In this document: in pieces, positions 1 through 57,800 of the stretch
How the letters are laid out: each line of letters starts with the position of its first letter
Numbering within the stretch: position 1 is the first letter of the stretch
Assembly (NCBI RefSeq): GCF_004010195.1
Contig: NC_057719.1
Coordinates: 28,868,556 to 28,932,555, forward strand
Direction of reading: 5' to 3'
Length of the DNA stretch: 64,000 bases
DNA from: Chiloscyllium plagiosum
Lineage: Eukaryota
Notes under the pieces: model-generated
What the model was told of the DNA's origin: nothing
Database searches by the model: none
The model's input: only the letters and a program-made list of their open reading frames with translations
Translations under genes and position numbers: made by a program

Positions 1-2660
1 ACACCTTACTGAAGTCCATATAGATCACAGCTACTGTTCTGCCCTCATTGATCCTCTTTGTTACTTCTTCAAAAAACTCAATTAAGTTTGTGAGACATGA
101 TTTCCCATGCACAAAGCCATGTTGACTATTCCTAATCAGTCCTTGCCTTTCCAAATACATGTACATCCTGTCCCTCAGGATTCCCTCCAACAACTTGCCC
201 ACCACCGACGTCAGGCTCACTGGTCTATAGTTCCCTGGCTTGTCCTTGCCACCTTTCTTAAATAGTGGCACAACGTTAGCCAACCTCCAGTCTTCCAGCA
301 CCTCACCTATGACTATCGATGATACAAATATATCTTAGTAAGCGGCCCAGCAATCATTTCTCTAGCTTTCCAGCGTTCTAGGGTACACCTGATCAGGTCC
401 TGGGGATTTATCCACTTTTATGCATTTCAAGACATTCAGCACTTCCTTCTCTGTAATATGGACATTTTTCAAGATGTCACCATGTATTTCCCTACATTCT
501 ATATCTTCCATGTCCTTTTCCACAGTAAACGCTGATGCAAAATACACAGTTAGTATTTCATGCGACTCCACACAAAGGCTGCCTTGCTCTATTCTCTCCC
601 TAGTTACCCTTTTGTCCTTAATCTATTTGTAAAAACCTTTTGGATTCGCCTTAACCCTATTTGCCAAAACTACCTCATGTCCCTTTTTGCCTTCATGATT
701 TTCTCTTAGGTAAACTCCTACTGCCTTTATACTCTTCCAAGGATTCACTTGATCTATCCTGTCTATACCTGACATATGCTTCCTTTCTGTTCTTAACCAA
801 ACCCTCAATTTCTTTAGCCATCCAGCATTCTCTATACCTACCAGCCTTTCCTTTCACCTTGACAGGAATATACTGTCTCTGCACTCTCGTTATCTCATTT
901 CTGAAGGCTTCCCATTTTCTAGGTGTCCCTTTACATGCGAACATCTCCCCCCCCCCCCCCCCCCCGCCTCCCAACAATCAACTTTTGAAAGTTCTTGTCT
1001 AATACCATCAAAATTGCCTGTTCTCCAATTTAGACCTTCAACTTTTAGATCTGGTCTATGTTTTCCATCACTATTTTAAAACTAATAGAATGGTGATCGC
1101 TGGCCCCAAAGTGCTCCCCCACTGACACCTCAGTCACTTACCCTGCCTTATTACCTATGTATTGTAGAGGGAATTACACTTCAAACCCAGGGCATCAATG
1201 TGGACTTCAGTTTCCTCATTTCCCCTTCCCCCACCTCACCCCAGTTCCAAACTTCCAGCTCAGCACTGTCCCCATGACTTGTCCTACCTGCCTATCTTCC
1301 TTTCCACATATCCACTCCACCCTCCTCCCTGACCTATCACCTCCATCCCCACACCATTCACCTATTGTACTCTATGCTACTTTCTCCTCACCCCCACCCT
1401 CCTCTCATTTATCTCTCTACCCTGCAGGCACTCTGCCTCTATTCCTGATGAAGGGCTTTTGCCAAAAACGTCAATTTTTCTACTGATGAGATGCTGTCTG
1501 ACCTGCTGTGCTTTTCCAGCACCACTCTAATATCAAATCTGGTTTCCAGCATCTGCAGTCCTTGTTTTTACCCAAGAGTAAGTCAAGTTTTGCACCTTCT
1601 CTAGTAAATATATCCACATACTGAATCAGAAAATTTTCTTGTACACTCTTAACTAACTCCTGTCCGTCTAAACCCTTAACTCAATGGCAGTCTCAGTCTG
1701 TGTTCGGAATTGTTAAAATCCCTGATCATAACCAACTTATTTTTCTAATAGTTAACTGAGGTCTCCTTACAAATTTGTTGCTCAATTTCCCTCTGATTAT
1801 TAGGGGGTCTATAATACAATCCCAAAAAGGTGATCATCCCTTTCTTATTTCTCCGTTCCACCCAAATATCTTCCCTGGATGTATTTCCAGGAATATCCTC
1901 CTTCAGTACAGCTGTAATATTATTCCTTATCAGAAATGTCACTTCCCCTGCTCTCTTGCCTCCTTTTCTGTCCTCCTTGTACCATTTGTATCCTGGAACA
2001 TTAAGCTGACAGTCCTGTACAGCCATGTTTCTGTAATTGCTGTGATATCCCAGTCCAATGTTCCTAACTATGCCCTGAGTTCATTTGCATTCTCTCTTAG
2101 GCCCCCTGCATTGAACTAAACGCAGTTTATCATTCCTACCTTGTTCACTGCTTTGTCCCTTGCCTGCCCTGCCTGTTTGTTTGTTTGACTGGCTTCTTTT
2201 TTCAACTGTACCAATCTCCGATTGATCTCATTCCTCACTATCTCCCTGCTACCCCCCCAATCTTACTAGTTTAAATCCTCCCGAGCAGCTCTAGCAAATC
2301 TCCCTGCCAGTATATTAGTCCCCTTCCAATTCAGGTGCAATCCATCCTTCTTGTACAGGTCACTTCTATCCCAGAAGAGATTCCAATGATTCAAAAATGT
2401 GAATCCTTCTCCCCTGCACCAGCTCTTCTGTTATGCATTCATCTGCCCTATATCCTCCTATTCCTACCCTCACTAGCTATTGGAACCGGGAGTAATCCAG
2501 GTATGCCTAACTCTCTGTATTCTCCCTTCAGAATCTCAACCTTTTCCCTTCTATGTTGTTGGTTCCAATGTGTACAGTGACTTCCTGCTGGGCCCTCTCC
2601 CCCTTGCGGACATTCTCTGAGACATCCTTGGTCCTGGCACCAGGGAAGCAACACCATTTT
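1..2660 (-). mobile_element. CR1-clade LINE, decayed (end of ORF1 SGNH esterase, ORF2 endonuclease, start of RT; runs off the window edge)
   Basis: Minus-strand fragments 'VDKSPGPDQVYPRTL', 'WQLNVPGYK..R.DRKGGKR' type, 'GLYYRPPN', and ORF1-type 'REKVEILKGEYRELG'; multiple frameshifts and deletions; clearly homologous to the + strand copy at 53.7-56.5 kb. Confidence 0.92.
1157..1570 (+). mobile_element. Penelope-like element 3' fragment nested in the CR1
   Basis: Same repeat as 9290-9570, 15833-16120 and 50934-51406 (cagggcatcaatgtggactt... pyrimidine tract... ctgatgaagggcttttgcc...tgctgtgcttttccagcacca); CR1 sequence resumes at ~1570. Confidence 0.8.
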
Positions 2661-2699
2661 GTCTGTGCCTTGGACAGTCGATCTCCTGAAACCTGACAT

Positions 2700-2978
2700 A
2701 CTTCTCATTGTATGCCATTTGACCCGTAGAGTCGGCACTGACCCTCCAAAGATTATCCCACCCAGACCCATCCTATCCCCATAACTGAGCATTTAGCATG
2801 GCCAATCCAGCTAATCTGCACATCTTTGGACTGGGAGAAGACCAGCACAGCAGATAGAAACCCACACAGCCACAGGGAGAATGGTGAGCTCCACAATACA
2901 GTCACCCAAGGCTGGAATTGTATATGGGTCCCTGGTGCTGTGAGCCAGCAGTGCTAACCACTGTGCCCCCATGCTGCC
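2700..2978 (-). mobile_element. HE1-type tRNA-derived SINE (diverged)
   Basis: Reverse complement of ggcacagtggttagcactgctg...cacagcaccagggaccc head and conserved body shared with the other copies in the window. Confidence 0.85.
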
Positions 2979-6270: not shown

Positions 6271-6590
6271 AGGGAAAGGTGGCACAGTGGTTAGCACTGC
6301 TGCCTCACAGCGCCAGAGACCCGGTGTCAATTCCCGCCTCAGGTAACTGTGTGGAGTTTGCACATTCTCCCTGTGTCTGCGTTGGGTTTCCTTTGAGTGT
6401 TCCGGTTTCCTCCCACAGTCCAAAAAATGTGCAGGTCAGGTGAATTGGCCACGCTAAATTGTCCGTAGTGTTCAGTGAGGGGGTAAATGTAGGGGAATGA
6501 GTCTGGGTGGGTTGCTCTTCGGAGGGTCGGTGTGGACTTGTGGGCCAAAGGGCCTGTTTCCACACTGTAAGTAATCTAATCTAATCAACC
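6271..6590 (+). mobile_element. HE1-type SINE
   Basis: tggcacagtggttagcac A-box region, B-box-like gtcaattcc, 3' gggcctgtttccacactgtaagtaatctaatctaatc tail. Confidence 0.93.
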
Positions 6591-7527: not shown

Positions 7528-9569
7528 GGGAGAAAGTGAGGACTGCAAATGCTGGAGATCAGAGTTGAAAAGTGTGGTGCTGTAAAAGCACAGCCAGTCA
7601 GGCAGCATCCGAGGAGCAGGAGAGTTGACATTTGAGCATAAGCTCTTCATCAGGATTGATGGGGGCGGGGGGATTGCTGGGAATGTGAAAGGTAGATGAA
7701 GATGAGGTGTGATGGTGATAGGGTGGAGCAGATAGTTGGGAAAGGAGATGGACAGGAAGGATGGGTCAAGCGGGCAGTGTCAAGCAAGAGGGTTGGATCT
7801 GGGATAAGGTGGGGAGAGGGGAAATCAATATTGGTCCCGTGTGGTTGGAGGGTCCCAAGGCAGAAGATGAGGCGTTCTTCCTCCAGGCGTTAGGTGGCTA
7901 GAGTTTGGTGGTGGAGGACTTGTATGTCCTTGGAGTGAGAGGGGGGAGTTAAAATGTTCAGCCACAGGGCAGTGGAGTTGTCCCAGAGATGATCTCTGAA
8001 ACGTTCTGCAAGTTGGCGCTCTGTCTTCCCAACGTAGAAAGACCACATCGGGAGCAATGGACACAGTAGATGATGTGTGTGAAAGTACAGGTAAATCTCT
8101 GTTGGATGTGGAAGGATACTTTGGGGCCTTAGACAGAGGTGTGGGGGAGGTATAGGTGCAAATTTTGCAATTCTTGCAGTGGCAAGGGAAAGTGCTGAGA
8201 GTGGAGAGTGGGTTGGTGGGGTGCATGAACTTATCAAGGGAGTCGCCGAAGGAATGTTCTCTGTCGAACGCAGACGGGAGTGGGGAGGGAGGTTTACCCC
8301 TGGATGGTAGGGTCTGTTTGTAGGTGGCGGGAATGGCAGAGGATGATGCAATGTATCTGAAGGCTGATGGGGTGGAAGGCAAGGACCAGAGGGTTCTGTC
8401 CTTGTTGAGGTTGGGGGGTGGGGTTCAAGGGCAGAGGTGCGGAAGTGGAGAAGATGCACTGGATGGCATCATTGACCATGTGAGAGAGGAAATTGCAGTC
8501 CCCGAAGAAGGAAGCCATCTGGGAAGTTCTTGTGGTGGAATTGGTCCTCCTGGGAGCAGATGTGGTGGTAGAGGAATTGGGAGTAAGGGATAGAGTTTTT
8601 GCAGGAGGCAGGGTGGGAGGAAGTGTAGTCCAGATAGCTGTGAGAGTCGGTGGGTTTGAAGTATGTGTCTGTGCTGAGTCGGTCGCTGGAAATGGAGACG
8701 GAGAGGTCCAGGAAGGGGAGGGAGGTGTTCTAGATGGTCCATGTGAACTTGAGCTCAGGGTGGAAGGTGTTCGTGAAGTTGATGAACTGGTAATGAACTC
8801 CGGATATAAGGCTTACCTACAAACGGACCCCACGAGGGATATATTTCCCTCCCCACCCCTCTCTGTGTTCCGCAGAATCCATTCTCTCCTTTGTTAGGTC
8901 CACGTCCCCCACCAACCCACACTCAACTCCTGGCATCTTCCCTGCCACCGCAAGAAGTGCACAACCTGTGCCCAAACCTCCCCCCTCACCTCCATCCAAG
9001 ACCCAAAAGGATCCTTCCACATTCGACCGAGATTTACATATACTTGCACACACGTTGTCCACTGTGTCCGTTGCTCTCAATGTGGTCTCCTCTACATTGG
9101 GGAGACAGGATGCCAACTTGCGGAACATTTCCGAGAACATCTCCGCGACACGTGCACTAAACAACTCCACCGCCCTGTGGCTGAACACTTCAACTCCCGC
9201 TCCCACTCTGCCACGGACATGCAAGTCCTTGGCCTCCTCCAGCACCAAGCGCTAGCCACCCGACATGTGGAAGAAGAACGCCTCATCTTCCACCTCGGAT
9301 ACACATGGAATCATTGTTGATTTCACCGGTTTCCTCATTTCCACTGTCTCCACCTTATCCCAGATCCAACCCTCTGACTTGACACCGCCCTCTTNNNNNN
9401 NNNNNNNNNNNNNNNNNNNNNNNNNNNNNNNNNNNNTTTATTGCTCAGCTCCCTTGGGACCCCCCACCCCCACCCCATTCCTTATGAAGAGCTCATGCTC
9501 AAAACGTTGACTCCCCTGCTGCTTGGATGCTGCCTGATCAGCTGTGCTATTCCAGCACCACACTTCTCG
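7528..9569. mobile_element. Fold-back Penelope-like element: minus arm (RT C-terminus + GIY-YIG + tail, 7528-~8790) joined to plus arm (GIY-YIG + tail, ~8811-9569); 14-bp TSD
   Basis: Plus arm encodes HVVHCVRCSQCGLLYIGETGCQLAEHFREH; minus arm encodes YVGKTERQLAERFRDH and YFKPTDSHSYLDYTSSHP; agattaaagtattt at 7514-7527 and 9570-9583. Confidence 0.9.
9395..9436. other. Assembly gap
   Basis: N run. Confidence 1.
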
Positions 9570-9904
9570 AGATTAAAGTATTTATCAAGGAAAGTTGAAC
9601 TGCGTTTTTAAGAAAAAAGAAACCATGGCTTATGGTTGCAAACTGCAAAAGGTCAAAGAAAGGAGAAAATGGTAGAATCTCAAAACTGAAGAATGCAAGC
9701 AGAAATTGCCTATTGCAAATCGAAACACTTGAATAACAGGCTAAGAGGAGAACAAATGTTTAAAGTGCATATTACATGATGAATTGGATTGCCTAAGAAG
9801 ATCACACCTTAAGTATACAACATCCAGGGAGGTTAGTGGAACCCAGGGTTGGAAACAACAGAGAGGAAGAACGGTGTTTAATGAACAAGTCCCCAATTAA
9901 ACAA

Positions 9905-10078: not shown

Positions 10079-11650
10079 AGTAAAATATGAAAGGTGCATT
10101 TTGGAAAAACTAAATGTAAAAGAAAACTAAAACCTGAAATAATACAGCTTGAAGAAGAGTTGTACTTTGACATATCATTGGACCAGAAATACTAGAGGGT
10201 GAATAGCAGTAAATAAGATGAAAAACTGAAAAATCAACAGAGAGATGAAATACCTGCATTATGGTTTAAAACGTACAAATGTAACATCAATACATACTAA
10301 ATTATCAACAATGGCCAGAGAATTTCAGGCAGGTGACAATGAAATTAATGATGTTCTGACTTTCACATATTTAGTCTGATTCTCCATGCATCGGTAGTTT
10401 GGTTGCGAATGATAAGACAGAGTGGGTGGGAAGGCACAGAACCACATTGCAGATGACCAGTTTGAATTCCAGGGAGGCAGAGAGATGTGAGAAGCAATCA
10501 CATTGTAAGATCAATGAGTAAATGCTGTTGAGAGTTCAACATTTGATTTGCAGATTTTTAAAAAGAACAATCAGTCTGGTTGAAGGGACTAAATTCTTAA
10601 CTGAGCTGAAAGATATTGGAATGGACTGGAGAAATAGATGATTAGTAATACACAGGGGACAAACAGCAACAGTAAGAGAAGTCTAAAAGTAGTCAAATGG
10701 AAGAGAGTTCAACAATGCTGTTGTTTAATACTAGTTCTCTTCAATGTCTGTGAAAACATAATCATTAAAGATTGGGAGTGGGGGGTGGAGTAATTTGCCA
10801 GCAGATCAAAGCACTATGGCAAGCACAGAAAAATGATTACTAGAACTAGTTTATAGACCAGAGATGATCTGTGGAATGAAAAGTGAACAGAAAAAAACAA
10901 AGTGCTTATCTTAAAATCATCAACAAAATTCATTGTTCATAGAAAGAAGCATCAAATGCAAGAACTCAAATATTTAGGATGAATAATGTCTGCAGACAGA
11001 AGAAGAAGCAAAGAACTAAGAACAACAATAGCTTTGGGAAAGCTGTATTTACCCAGAAGAGCCAGTTGCTAACCAGGGAAAGCTGAATAAACAACTGAGG
11101 GAGAGACTTGTGAAGTGCTTGATATGGAGTGTTGATTCATACGGATGTGAGACCTTGAACCTTGAGGAAAGAAAAGGCCAACTTGCTAAATAGCTTTTAA
11201 ATGTGGCTTTTGAAGAGCTGAAAGAATCAACTTGTCCAAAAAGAAACAACTGAAGCGTTGAGGAGAATGAACAAACAAAAGGCATTGCTAAATATCGTTA
11301 GTATATAAAACTACTTTTAATTTTCTTTTGACTATGGATGCAAAATGAGAAAAATGGATTCTGCTTTAAAAAGGAGATAAAATGCAATTTCTGAAGAAGG
11401 GTCACGAGATCCAAAACATTAACTCTGATTCTCTCCACAAATGCTACCTGAGATTTTTCTGCCATTTCTGTTTTTGCTTGCTTTTTTATAAAATGCAAGG
11501 AGTTGTTGCAGACTTATGCAAACAAGTGAAGCTGAATGGTGCATATGAAACGCTATCACCTTTTGGGGAGATTGGATCCAGACAAGTGCCACCATTTGCT
11601 ATAGGTTCAGGAAAGCTCAGCAGAGCAATCTCTACAAGATTCCGAAAACA

Positions 11651-11785
11651 CAGTCTGGATTAGAGTGGTGCTGGAAAAGCACAGCAGTTCAGGCAGCGTT
11701 CAAGGAGCAGTAAAATCGACGTTTCGGGCAAAAGCCCTTCATCAGGAATACAGGCAGAGAGCCTGAAGGGTGGAGAGATAAGGTG
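11651..11785 (-). mobile_element. 135-bp Penelope tail insertion with 14-bp TSD, inside an older Penelope-type tail (to ~11930)
   Basis: agattccgaaaaca at 11637-11650 and 11786-11799. Confidence 0.85.
11718..11745 (-). ncRNA. Minimal hammerhead ribozyme core (Penelope-associated type)
   Basis: Minus strand CTGATGA-A-GGGC-TTTT-GCCC-GAAA-CGTC: conserved core, 4-bp stem II, palindromic ACGT stem III and GUC triplet; stem I is short and imperfect. Confidence 0.7.
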
Positions 11786-12660
11786 AGATTCCGAAAACAA
11801 CCAGTGCTGGAGATCACAGTGGGTCAGACAGCATCCCTGGAGAGACAGCAAGCTAACGACTTGAGTATAGATGACTCTTCATCAGCCCTACAACTTTTCA
11901 GTTCCGTTTCAAGCATCTACAGTAATTTTCACCAACAAGGCTCTTATTGCTAAGGTTGTAGTTTATCACAGTCTCTGTGAGGGGAGTGAATAAGACCGAG
12001 GGAAGCAAGGAGATCTCCTGAAGGTCGTTGCATCAATCCTTTCCCTCTCTCCCTTCTCTGTAAAACTGCTATCTCCAATTTTCTGTCAAATATGCAGGGG
12101 AAAAAAAAATATTGGGATGCATTGTGGGAAATAATTCTAAAACCGAAAGATTACCAGAAAGACCCCAGGTCCAATCAACCAACTGATGAATTAAAGACTG
12201 ATCATCACTGGACAGATAATATGTGAAACATTATCAAGGATTGTAGAAATAACTCATCACACTTGTAATACGATACAGATTTGTGGTCCTCTTTCTATTT
12301 GATTTCTGTCCAGTCCAGGTATTTGTCTTTATTTTATCTTTATGTGCCTGTGTGTTGTGGGGGATGATGGGGGAATATTAAAAGCGATGAAGTTTAAGTT
12401 GCATAAATTAGAAATCCTCTTCATTAAAAAAAATCTTATTTTATATTTACTGATTGAACTTGATGTGGTTTGCTTTTATCTTGGCAGCAGTCAGAGACAA
12501 ATTGAGATTTTTAGTAGTTTAATCAAGTCGTCACACCCGTTATGACTCCAGCAATATGGAGCTTGATTCCAGTGTGCTCCCCCATGAGTCATTACATTAG
12601 GGGTAGTGCAGAGAAACTGGATAGGGCACAGTTTAAGAGGGAATGAACTAGTTCGAGACA

Positions 12661-13183
12661 AAGTTAAAAGTCACACAACACCAGGTTATAGTCCAACAGG
12701 TTTATTTGGAAGCACTAGCTTTCAGAGGGCTGCTCCTTCATCAGGTGGCTGTGGAGTATAAGATTATAAGACACAGAATTTATAGCAAAAGATTACAGTG
12801 TCATGCAACTGATGCGATATATTGAACAAACCTGGATTGTTGTTAAGTCTTTCATCTTTCAGAACAGATTACAGGTTGTGTTTCATTAATGTGTAAATCT
12901 TAGTTCTGGGATTTACAGATTAATGAACCAAAACCTGCAACCTGTTCTAAAAGATAAAAGACTTAACAACAATTCAGGTTTGTTCAATATCTCATTTCAG
13001 TTGCATGACACTGTAATCTTTTGCTATAAATTCTGTGTCTTATGAGCTGATAATCCACAGCCACCTGATGAAGGAGCAGCGCTCTGAAAGCTAGTGCTTC
13101 CAAATTAACCTGTTGGACGATAACTTGGTGTTGTGTGATTTTTAAATTTGTCTACCTCAGTCCAACACTGGCTCCTCCACCTC
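12661..13183. mobile_element. Non-coding palindromic Penelope-derived element (~245-bp arms) with 13-bp TSD
   Basis: 12657-12903 is the reverse complement of ~12906-13152 with scattered mismatches; ctagtt(c/a)gagaca at 12648-12660 and 13184-13196; ctgatgaaggagcagc.ctctgaaagctag in both arms. Confidence 0.88.
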
Positions 13184-13439
13184 CTAGTTAGAGACATTAT
13201 AGAAGGAAGATTTCATGATAGGAAGGGGAAGAAGATAATATTAAAGTGAGGTGATTTGAAATTTGACTTAAGCTATTAAGAAATGAATAGACTTGTTTAG
13301 GGTAGCAGGTCTTGGGAAAGATGATAAGCCAAGGACTTCCCTGGATCAGAGCCGACATGACGGTGATATTCTATAACACTCTACCCTTGTTGGAAAGCCC
13401 CATATCGAGGAATATTGAGTTCCTGGTCCTTTATTTTGA

Positions 13440-54823: not shown

Positions 54824-57800
54824 AAGTGACCTGTACAAGAAGGATGGATTGCACCTGATTTGGAAGGGGACTAATATACTGGCAGGGAGATTTGCTTGAC
54901 CTGCTCAGGAGGATTTAAACTAGTAAGGCGGTGGGGGGCTGGGGTGGGACCCAGGGAGATAGTGAGGAAAGAGATCAATCTGAGACCGGTACAGTTGAGA
55001 ACAAGGGCAATTCAAACAGTCAGGGCAGGCAGAGACAAAGCAGAGAACAAGGACTAATAAATTAAACTGCATTTATTTCAATGCAAGGGGCCTAAGAGAG
55101 AAGACAGATGAACCCAGGGCTTGGTTAGGAACGTGGGACTGGGATATCATAGCAATTACAGAAACATGGCTCAGGAATGGATAGGACTGGCAGCTTAATG
55201 TTCCGGGATACAAATGCTACAGGAAGGGCAGAAAGAGAGGCAACAGAGGAGGGGGAGTGCTAGTTTTGATAAAGTATAGCATTTCAGCTGTACTGAGGGA
55301 GGATATTCCCAGAAATACATCCAGGGAAGTTATTTGGATGGAACTGAAAAAATGAAAGGGATGATCACCTTATTGGGATTATATTATAGACCCCCTAATA
55401 GTCAGAGGGAAATAGAGAAACAAATTTGTAAGGAGATCTCAGTTATCTGTAAAACATAATAAGGTGTCAATGGTAGGGGATTTTAACTTTCCAAACATAG
55501 ACTGAGACTACCATACTGTTAAGGATTTAGATGGAAAGGAATTTGTTAAGTGCGTGCAAGAAAATTCTCTGAGTCAGTATGTGGATGTACCTAGTAGAAA
55601 AGGTGTAAAACTTGGCCTACTCTTGGGAAATAAGGCAGGGCAGGTGACTGAGGTGTCGGTGGAAGAGCACTTTGTGGCCAGCAACCCATAATTCTATTAG
55701 TTTTAAAATAATGATGGAAAAGGATAGACCAGATATAAAAGTTAAGTTCTAAATTGGAGAAAGGCTAATTTTAACGGAATTAGGCAAGAACTTCCAAAAG
55801 CTGATTGGGGGGAAATATTTGCAAGTAAAGGAACGACTGGAAAATGGGAAGCCTTCAGAATGAGGTAACGAGAGTCCAGAGAAAGTATGTTCCTGTGAGG
55901 GTGAAAGGAAAGGCTAGAGGTATAGGGAATATAGGGAGAGAATAGGACCCCTCAAAGATCAGCAATGCGACCTTTGTGTGGAGCCGCAGGAAATGGGGGA
56001 GATACTAAATGAATATTTTGCATCAGTATTTATTGTGGAAAAAGACATAGAGGATATAGAATGTAGGGAAATAGATGGTGACATCTTGAAAAATGTCCAT
56101 ATTACAGATCAGGTGTATCCTAGAACTCTGTGGGAAGCGAGAGAAGTGATTGCTGGGCCTCTTGCTGAGATATTTGTATCATTGATAGTCACAGGTGAGG
56201 TGCCAGAAGACTGGAGGTTGGCTAACATGGTGCCACTGTTTAAGAAGGGTGGTAAGGACAAGCCAAGGAACTATAGAGCAGTGAGCCAGACATCGTTGGT
56301 GGGTATGTTGTTGGAGCGAATCCTGAGGGACAGGTTGTACATGTATTTGGAAAGGCAAGGACTGATTAGGAATAGTCAACATGACTTTGTGCATGGGAAA
56401 TCATGTCTCACAAACTTGATTGAGTTTTTTGAAGAAGTAGCAAAGAGGATTGATGAGGGCAGAGCAGTAGATGTGATCTATATGGACTTCAGTTAGGTGT
56501 TTGACAAAGATCCCCATGGGAGACTGATTAGCAAGGTTAGATCTCATGGAATATAGGGACAACTAGCCATTTGGATACAGAACTGGTTCAAAGGTAGAAG
56601 ATAGAGGGTGGTGGTGGAGGGTTGTTTTTCAGATTGAAGGCCTGTGACCAGTGGCGTGCCACAAGAATCGGTGCTGGGTCCACTGCTTTTCATCATTTAT
56701 ATAAATGATTTGGATGTGAACATAAGAAGTATAGTTAGTAAGTTTGCAGATGACACCAAAATTGGAGGTGTAGTAGACAGTGAAGAGTGTTACCTCAGAT
56801 TACAATGGGATCTTGATGAGATGGGCCAGTGGGCTAAGAAGTGGCAGATGGAGTTTAATTCAGATAAATGCGGGGTGCTGCATTTTGGGAAAGCAAATCT
56901 TAGCAGGACTTATACACTTAATAGTAAGGTCCTAGCAGGTGTTGCTGCACAAAGACACCTTGGAGTGCAGGTTCATAGCTCCTTGAAAGTGGAGTCGCAG
57001 GTAGATACGATAGTGAAGAAGGTGTTTGGTATGATCACACCCACAGCATTTGTCAACGGCCAACTTAGCAAAAGCACTTAGCACACAGCTATGTCTAAAA
57101 GTCAAAGGGGAGTAATCTTCAGTCAAGTCAAAGGTCATTGCCATTAATTAAGGCGTTCTCAGTACAGTTGGTTAAGAGCATTATGTGTTCAAAGTCCTGG
57201 GGCTTGAGTATGGTCAGTCATCTGCTCAGGGTGGTCACGATCAGGCCTCTGTTGCTGTATAGTCTGGGGAGTAAGCACGGTCAATTCTATGGATCAGTGC
57301 AAACAGTTATGGACTTTGCAGAACATTAGTTATGGAGTTGCATGGACAGCAATCAGGGAATTAGGCAATTATCAGTTGGGGCTGTCCATCCAAGTCATTC
57401 AGGAGTGGGCCATGGTCAGTCCCAGGGTAAGCAAAATGAAATTCAATGGAGTATGAGGACACTCTGCTGTGATAGGAAAATGGGGGAATTCAATGCTGGG
57501 GATTATAAATACCAACATGGGATGTGGAAGGGACAAGGATTGTGAAAGGGAGAAATTCAACATATAAGGTAGGGAGGCAATAGTGAATATGAGGACATGG
57601 GACGGTTATCGACGGCCTTCATCACTGAAACCTCGATAGAGAGAGTGCATCACAATGGCAGTCAGAAATATATACAGGCTATTCAGCCCTTTGAGCCTGT
57701 GCAGCCATTAAATATGCTTGTGGCTAATCATCCAAATCAGGAAGTTTAATAATTATGTCCAGTCCTTCATAAAAATATTCAATGTTATGCCCTCAACCAC

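What the first reader, a model, noticed from the sequence alone, without database searches (positions are those of the whole stretch)
12648..13196. Non-coding palindromic mini-element with two opposed hammerhead-like cores and a 13-bp TSD
Seen: ~245-bp arms form a near-perfect hairpin with almost no loop. Each arm carries CTGATGA-aggagcagc.ctct-GAAA-gctagtgctt (12720-12744 on -, 13065-13089 on +). The right arm alone has a ~30-nt extra tail, and the whole unit is flanked by ctagtt(c/a)gagaca, so it arrived in one event. Established: Penelope-like elements carry minimal hammerheads in their pseudo-LTRs and often have inverted terminal structure. Inference: this is either a one-off fold-back insertion product or a non-autonomous hairpin-RNA element. 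Transcription from either strand would give a ~245-bp dsRNA with one sense ribozyme core (a possible endo-siRNA or ADAR substrate). I could not build a convincing stem I for this core by eye.
Basis: partly seen in the sequence, partly recalled or inferred. Interest (0 to 1): 0.7.

Follow-up and report, generated by a model that had tools for sequence, protein, structure and literature searches.

The report
Penelope retroelement fold-back insertion, shark
This 549-base mirror-image sequence is real but ordinary: it is two back-to-back end pieces of a very abundant Penelope-type jumping gene, likely joined during one insertion event, and it is not a self-copying hairpin element; its ribozyme-like motifs are predicted to be locked away inside the hairpin.

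Summary
In detail: 244-nt arms, 91% complementary, a 35-nt tail on the right arm only, and a 12/13 TSD. Each arm is the 3' end (pLTR) of an endonuclease-bearing Penelope-like element. Longer copies run on into a GIY-YIG/RT ORF, and the tail ends at that ORF's ATG. Head-to-head pLTRs with a one-sided tail and a TSD are the published PLE layout. The core fits the dimer-only minimal hammerhead (stem I CAC/GUG, palindromic AGCU, CUA cut site), which is why no monomer could be built. In either transcript the sense core is paired with the other arm. No RNA reads reached the unique flanks. The likely mechanism is priming from both cut strands at two fixed RNA start sites. The scan noted this same layout before in other shark DNA (137 earlier notes matched my word search).

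The parts
12648..12660 (+). Left target-site duplication (13 bp). Its last 4-5 nt are also complementary to the element's continuation (microhomology at the tail-less end)
12661..12903 (-). Left arm: inverted, 5'-truncated 3' end of the Penelope-like element, tail-less; covers about -276 to -35 relative to the last base before the ORF start
12701..12706 (-). AATAAA of the pLTR (intact here, mutated in the right arm). Reads from other family copies carry poly(A) 12-15 nt downstream
   Evidence: sequence; loose ends at 12686 and 12689
12713..12747 (-). Minimal (dimer-type) hammerhead motif, left copy; stem II has 4 of 5 pairs
12902..12903 (.). Head-to-head junction with a 2-nt overlap (AG) shared by both arms
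   Evidence: same junction in L004 and L005
12902..13148 (+). Right arm: sense 3' UTR/pLTR piece, from -280
13062..13096 (+). Minimal hammerhead motif, right copy: stem I 13062-64 with 13094-96, CUGAUGA 13065-71, extra A 13072, stem II 13073-85, GAA, palindromic AGCU 13089-92, predicted cut after A13093
   Evidence: model from PMC4209133
13149..13183 (+). 35-nt Penelope 'tail'. In a full-length copy it leads straight into the ORF start codon
   Evidence: (L095)
13184..13196 (+). Right target-site duplication

Best explanation
The unit is two head-to-head 3' ends of an endonuclease-bearing Penelope-like retrotransposon between a 13-bp target duplication, likely made in one insertion when both cut DNA strands primed reverse transcription, and it does not spread as a palindrome family. 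Shown: arm identity, the ORF-adjacent tail, the TSD, varying centres and exactly one tail per insertion. Inferred steps: (1) the element's GIY-YIG nuclease cuts both strands about 13 bp apart. (2) One 3'-OH primes at the RNA site next to the ATG (tail arm). The other primes about 35 nt upstream, helped by a few bases of microhomology (tail-less arm). (3) Because both arms run past the usual stop near -120 into the 3' UTR, the template was likely a longer-than-unit (tandem) RNA. (4) Both cDNAs stopped near -280 and were joined through 2 nt of microhomology. (5) The copy has since decayed. The hammerheads are passengers of the pLTR. They are predicted to need a second same-strand copy and to be paired away in the hairpin.
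For: Longer copies extend from the arm into GIY-YIG endonuclease sequence. L080's 438-aa frame hits 29 proteins, best 53% identity at E 1e-147; Pfam finds RVT_1 in 3 of 3 homologues scanned and GIY-YIG in 1. L095 shows inverted pLTR + pLTR + tail + ATG + ORF + pLTR. Centre motif 5 matches against 8,405 for the parent. 47 of 88 consecutive insertions have a head-to-head partner, and 47 of 47 junction pairs differ. One tail in 39 of 40 (the 40th is not an outer end) and in 38 of 40 in the second sample. Own arms are 0.887 alike against 0.841 across loci; tail-tail, tailless-tailless and mixed pairs are equal (0.840/0.843/0.842). Either arm can be the longer one (27:27, with 23 level, of 77). In vitro a PLE protein cuts and extends both strands and starts at two RNA sites that bound the tail (PMC11167929, main text read). 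Core paired with the other arm at P = 0.965 in both strands.
Against: Some junctions recur: L001/L004/L005 share this one, and 2 pairs among the 11 matches have the same junction length. In the short class, 'different' junctions are separated by only a few bases, within BLAST end noise. PMC11167929 reports no start-site difference between strands, so it does not explain the strict one-tail polarity. It also reports priming without homology, whereas I see about 1 nt excess microhomology at the tail-less end. The similarity of own arms could come from later gene conversion. The L080 fragment had no Pfam hit itself and no PDB hit. No biochemical step was tested here.
Confidence: 0.88

Rival explanations
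1. Same identity, different mechanism: the second arm is made by self-priming (snap-back), on the cDNA or on an antisense RNA template, as proposed for rotifer Penelopes.
For: PMC3846280 (Discussion read) interprets junction palindromes as self-priming on an antisense template. This copy's centre is nearly symmetric. Own arms share non-majority letters (5 here).
Against: Pure cDNA snap-back cannot give a tail-less arm longer than the tailed arm, and this occurs in 27 of 77. Many junctions are hundreds of bases asymmetric. The antisense-template version was not tested directly.
Confidence: 0.2
2. A non-autonomous palindromic (MITE-like or retrozyme-like) element that is copied as a unit.
For: Three loci share this junction. 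The query retrieved many palindromes of similar size.
Against: 5 matches against 8,405; of the 5, only the window copy and L004 showed both arms. L005 has the tail on the opposite side. The three same-junction loci are 0.82-0.90 alike, share 0-4 non-majority letters and do not group together. The size similarity is a by-product of the query. TSD length varies 9-17 bp and the ends are asymmetric, unlike a MITE.
Confidence: 0.04
3. Whatever its origin, this copy is transcribed and acts as a hairpin RNA (endo-siRNA source or ADAR substrate) in the SIX gene cluster.
For: A very stable fold. Family copies appear in polyA RNA reads. Rotifer Penelopes yield small RNAs (PMC3846280).
Against: Zero RNA depth over the unique left flank in X19 and X20; right-flank reads only on repeat pieces. 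Only about 2-6% of those runs was read. The arms have about 9% mismatches, the same order as their distance from the family majority.
Confidence: 0.06

Closest known systems
EN+ Penelope-like element insertions with inverted pLTR, 30-40 bp tail and TSD (Pen2a_Av, PMC3846280; general scheme in PMC8557442 Fig. 2 legend; passages read)
   Same: Head-to-head inverted 5'-truncated copy, a tail at one end only, a TSD of variable length, and a tail continuous with the ORF start.
   Different: This copy holds no ORF at all, since both arms are truncated within the 3' UTR. In this family the tail stops at the ATG rather than inside the ORF. The family is far larger (114,369 matches to one pLTR 22-mer).
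Minimal hammerheads of metazoan PLEs (PMC4209133; results and discussion read)
   Same: CUGANGA, an extra base before stem II, G10.1-C11.1 in the family majority, palindromic 15.2-16.2, no helix III, and motifs on opposite strands 100-700 bp apart as that paper notes.
   Different: Stem I is 3 bp plus a mismatch plus 2 bp. The cut triplet is CUA. Both window copies carry G-U at 10.1-11.1 (CpG decay).
PAc (Poseidon of Anolis carolinensis), PMC11167929
   Same: Two reverse-transcription start sites bounding the tail, AT-rich targets (TSDs here 69% AT), and both strands cut and extended.
   Different: A different clade (this family has the Cys linker). In PAc the hammerhead overlaps the start codon and the tail lies inside the ORF.
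Non-LTR retrozymes (bioRxiv 10.64898/2026.07.22.740005; first fifth and passages read)
   Same: Non-coding, hammerhead-bearing, derived from PLE pLTRs.
   Different: Retrozymes are head-to-tail tandems with two or more same-strand hammerheads. This unit is head-to-head with one per strand.
LINE-1 twin priming (recalled, not looked up)
   Same: Inversion made by priming from both cut strands, with microhomology at the joint.
   Different: In L1 the two segments are different parts of one RNA. Here both arms copy the same 3' end, so two passes or two copies of the template are needed.

Membership tests
EN+ Penelope-like elements | Single ORF with RT and C-terminal GIY-YIG in the parent element | tested here: met
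   the linked ORF is collinear with 881-961-aa RT proteins, one with a Pfam GIY-YIG hit. Absent from the window copy itself.
EN+ Penelope-like elements | pLTR repeated before and after the ORF, direct or inverted | tested here: met
   L095: arm at 1941-2206 (-), 2560-2809 (+) and 6301-6478 (+) around the ORF.
EN+ Penelope-like elements | 30-40 bp tail at one end | tested here: met
   35 nt here; one tail in 39 of 40 and 38 of 40.
EN+ Penelope-like elements | Variable-length TSD | tested here: met
   13 bp here; 9-17 bp in 43 of 77; control 12 of 308.
Neptune clade | CX2-5CxxC linker between RT and EN | tested here: met
   Present in homologue P0001; in L080 with one Cys lost. Nematis shares the motif (PMC8557442).
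Neptune clade | RT tree placement with named Neptune references | not tested
   No named reference sequences were on hand; the clade label rests on the linker and on Neptune/Poseidon being the vertebrate clades in the bioRxiv survey.
Minimal type I hammerhead of PLEs | Core boxes, extra base, stem II, palindromic 15.2-16.2, NUH, stem I | tested here: met
   Both arms pass; 45 of 156 arm copies pass all criteria. A second family in the window changes AGCU to ACGU and alters stems I and II while keeping the pairing.
Minimal type I hammerhead of PLEs | Self-cleavage as a dimer | not testable with these tools
   Only folding was computed. The dimer layout (-13.1, one stem I drawn) is less stable than the co-fold minimum (-24.3).
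Rfam hammerhead families | Covariance-model match | tested here: not met
   No hammerhead family among 8 matches at E up to 10.
Non-LTR retrozyme | Head-to-tail tandem units with at least two consecutive hammerheads | tested here: not met
   One core per strand, head-to-head.
Replicating palindromic mini-element (MITE-like) | Many copies with the same centre and fixed-length TSD | tested here: not met

The most novel reading that the evidence does not exclude
These fold-backs are a genome-scale footprint of a polarised two-sided priming reaction. One cut strand always starts at the ATG-adjacent RNA site and the other about 35 nt upstream with short microhomology, both on the same RNA or source copy, so Penelope inverted pLTRs and the one-sided tail come from a single two-nick reaction rather than from self-priming. 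My searches found no paper stating this for PLEs; earlier scan notes already propose it.
Probability: 0.55. Interest if true: 0.45.

Novelty: new member of a known kind. Interest (0 to 1): 0.17.

Why it matters
The copy itself matters little: it is one old insertion among tens of thousands. The family is useful as data on an open question, namely how Penelope elements make inverted ends and the one-sided tail. Strict one-tail polarity, either arm being the longer, and same-source arms are predictions that the existing in vitro PLE system can test directly. About half of sampled insertions are fold-backs, so this genome carries a large load of potential dsRNA.

Tried and rejected
Rfam: no hammerhead hit; the MIR7996 and MIR837 matches are below gathering and reflect only a long hairpin. 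Pfam and PDB gave nothing for the decayed L080 fragment; identity came through homologues. Genomic trace of hammerhead cleavage: if cut RNA were the template, arms should begin at -89; only 5 of 135 begin at -86 to -90, against 59 at -113 to -133, so rejected. Monomeric hammerhead with a stem III hairpin: no stem I follows it. Run search: no RNA holder listed. X20 gave no reads, and X19 was read at about 2%; A-to-I editing could not be assessed because all arm reads come from other copies. Presence of the insertion in other individuals: contigs enter the arm by fewer than 31 nt, so not counted. The microhomology control omits the greedy extension of TSD calls, which could raise the null from about 0.45 to about 0.9; only the tail-less excess (1.87) survives, not the tail-end value (0.97). 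No supplements were read; the supplementary alignments of PMC4209133 may already list this hammerhead family, and Repbase/Dfam could not be searched.

Full report
Observation. The inverted repeat is at 12656-12899 / 12910-13153, 244 nt, 91% complementary. The unit folds into one hairpin at -366 kcal/mol and the 13-bp flanks match at 12 positions. The right arm carries 35 extra bases (13149-13183). The window is C10:28868556-28932555 of a 3.56-Gb genome. It lies between SIX-domain genes at 28.836 and 28.949 Mb, with MAT1 exons further left, so the element is probably intergenic.

Identity. The element gave 9,923 candidates, of which 40 were scored. Copies that matched only one arm continue upstream for about 850 non-coding bases and then into endonuclease-like sequence. 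A search with that piece gave 6,597 candidates; 26 of 30 fetched loci had the arm nearby. L080 holds a 438-aa open frame. It had no Pfam or PDB hit by itself but matched 29 longer proteins, best 53% identity. Pfam found RVT_1 in all three homologues scanned and GIY-YIG in one, and the alignment shows the YIDD and GIY-YIG-type motifs. L095 has the full layout: inverted arm with tail, direct arm with tail running into ATG, ORF, 3' UTR and arm. Coordinates below count from the last base before that ATG. A Cys-x4-Cys-x2-Cys linker points to the Neptune type; no tree was built.

Known layout. PMC8557442 (passages read) describes an inverted 5'-truncated copy at the 5' end and a 30-40 bp tail often at one end only. 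PMC3846280 (passages and Discussion read) shows inverted pLTRs with a 31-bp tail and 8-10 bp TSDs. PMC11167929 (abstract and main text read) shows that the tail lies between two reverse-transcription start sites and that both target strands are cut and extended.

Does the palindrome replicate? The centre 22-mer with up to 2 mismatches has 5 matches including this copy; the unbroken parent across the same spot has 8,405. Only two of the five showed both arms. pLTR 22-mers near -75 and -170 give 114,369 and 19,355 matches. I took 90 of the first 100 listed exact matches to the -75 motif on contig C1, skipping second hits on one palindrome, and dropped 2 duplicate views. Of 88 insertions, 47 had a head-to-head partner and all 47 junction pairs differed, with arms from about 50 to over 1,200 nt (BLAST ends are good to a few bases). 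None had both arms starting near -280. Against this reading, L004 and L005 share the window's junction, and two pairs recur among the 11 matches. But the three loci are no more alike than background, and L005 has its tail on the other side. Across 27 fold-backs, tail arms resemble other tail arms no more than tail-less arms (0.840, 0.843, 0.842), while a locus's own arms are closer (0.887; nearest in 10 of 27). Recurrent junctions are best read as microhomology hot spots (inference).

End rules. Exactly one tail was found in 39 of 40 fold-backs (the exception is L095's internal pLTR) and in 38 of 40 in the second sample, with 2 lacking both. TSDs were called in 27 of 40 against 12 of 308 control pairs, and in 43 of 77 with stricter settings, 9-17 bp, 69% AT. 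The tail arm was longer in 27, the tail-less arm in 27, and 23 were level. Fold-back of a single cDNA cannot give a longer tail-less arm plus a tail, so two independent primings fit better (inference). Microhomology averages 1.87 nt at tail-less ends and 0.97 at tail ends against about 0.45 in a control that probably understates the null by half. This copy has 4-5 nt at its tail-less end and none at its tail end.

Hammerhead. Rfam finds none. PMC4209133 (results and discussion read) defines a minimal PLE hammerhead with no helix III, an extra base before stem II, G10.1-C11.1 and palindromic 15.2-16.2, active only weakly and only as a dimer. The core here reads CAC, CUGAUGA, A, GGAGC-AGC-GCUCY, GAA, AGCU, A, GUG. 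Among 156 distinct arm copies, 68 keep the core, 103 keep all three stem I pairs and 45 pass everything; both window arms pass. The descriptor hits 3 places in the window and none in 20 shuffles; the third is a second family with ACGU and different stems. Within the family the changes look like decay, so there is no within-family covariation. In a transcript of either strand the antisense arm comes first, and the sense core pairs with it at P = 0.965. Arm 5' ends pile up at -113 to -133 (59 of 135), just before the core, and not at the predicted cut at -89 (5 of 135). There is thus no genomic trace of cleaved RNA serving as template, in line with PMC11167929.

Expression. No RNA holder was listed. 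In two single-cell polyA runs from one sample, read at about 2% and 6%, no read lay on the unique left flank, and all 371 laid reads fitted only in part. On the right, reads lay only on repeat pieces. In X19, 92 and 48 reads carried poly(T) 12-15 nt past the pLTR's AATAAA, so some family copies supply a poly(A) site at about -60. That is upstream of both element ends, so such RNAs could not template them (inference; the number of molecules is unknown).

Earlier scan notes. After I had set down my reading, a word search returned 137 notes in at least 15 genomes. Several describe the same layout, two-sided priming and run-off near the hammerhead. They are not independent support. The sequence look-up returned nothing.

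Verdict. A real but ordinary 5'-truncated, inverted insertion of an abundant Penelope-like family. It is a new member of a known kind, with interest 0.17. The remaining value lies in the family's end rules as a test of the PLE insertion mechanism.

Noticed in passing
family-wide; window 12686-12706 (-): PolyA RNA reads from other copies end 12-15 nt after the pLTR AATAAA (92 + 48 reads, run X19). The family may donate poly(A) sites to host or element transcripts.
   Followed up: partly
L134-L223: 59 of 135 arm 5' ends fall at -113 to -133, just upstream of the hammerhead core: a likely transcription start or reverse-transcription stop.
   Followed up: partly
window 11637-11799: Short insertion of a second Penelope family with an intact minimal hammerhead (11745, - strand, ACGU/GUC type) between 14-bp direct repeats.
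   Followed up: partly
window 7565-9570: About 2-kb head-to-head insertion of that second family with ORF remnants on both strands (tblastn at 8421-8771 and 8847-9287).
   Followed up: partly
L116/L117 (G000:C1:17.71 Mb): A fold-back whose centre region is tandemly duplicated 357 bp apart.
   Followed up: no
L050, L118, L048, L089: Own arms share 13-20 non-majority letters: rare subfamilies or gene conversion between arms.
   Followed up: no
window 1-2365 and 54824-56500: Long inverted pair of one repeat about 53 kb apart, 80-93% complementary in pieces.
   Followed up: no
G000:C10:28.74-29.10 Mb: MAT1 exons and three SIX domains surround the window; the element lies between the first two SIX domains.
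   Followed up: partly
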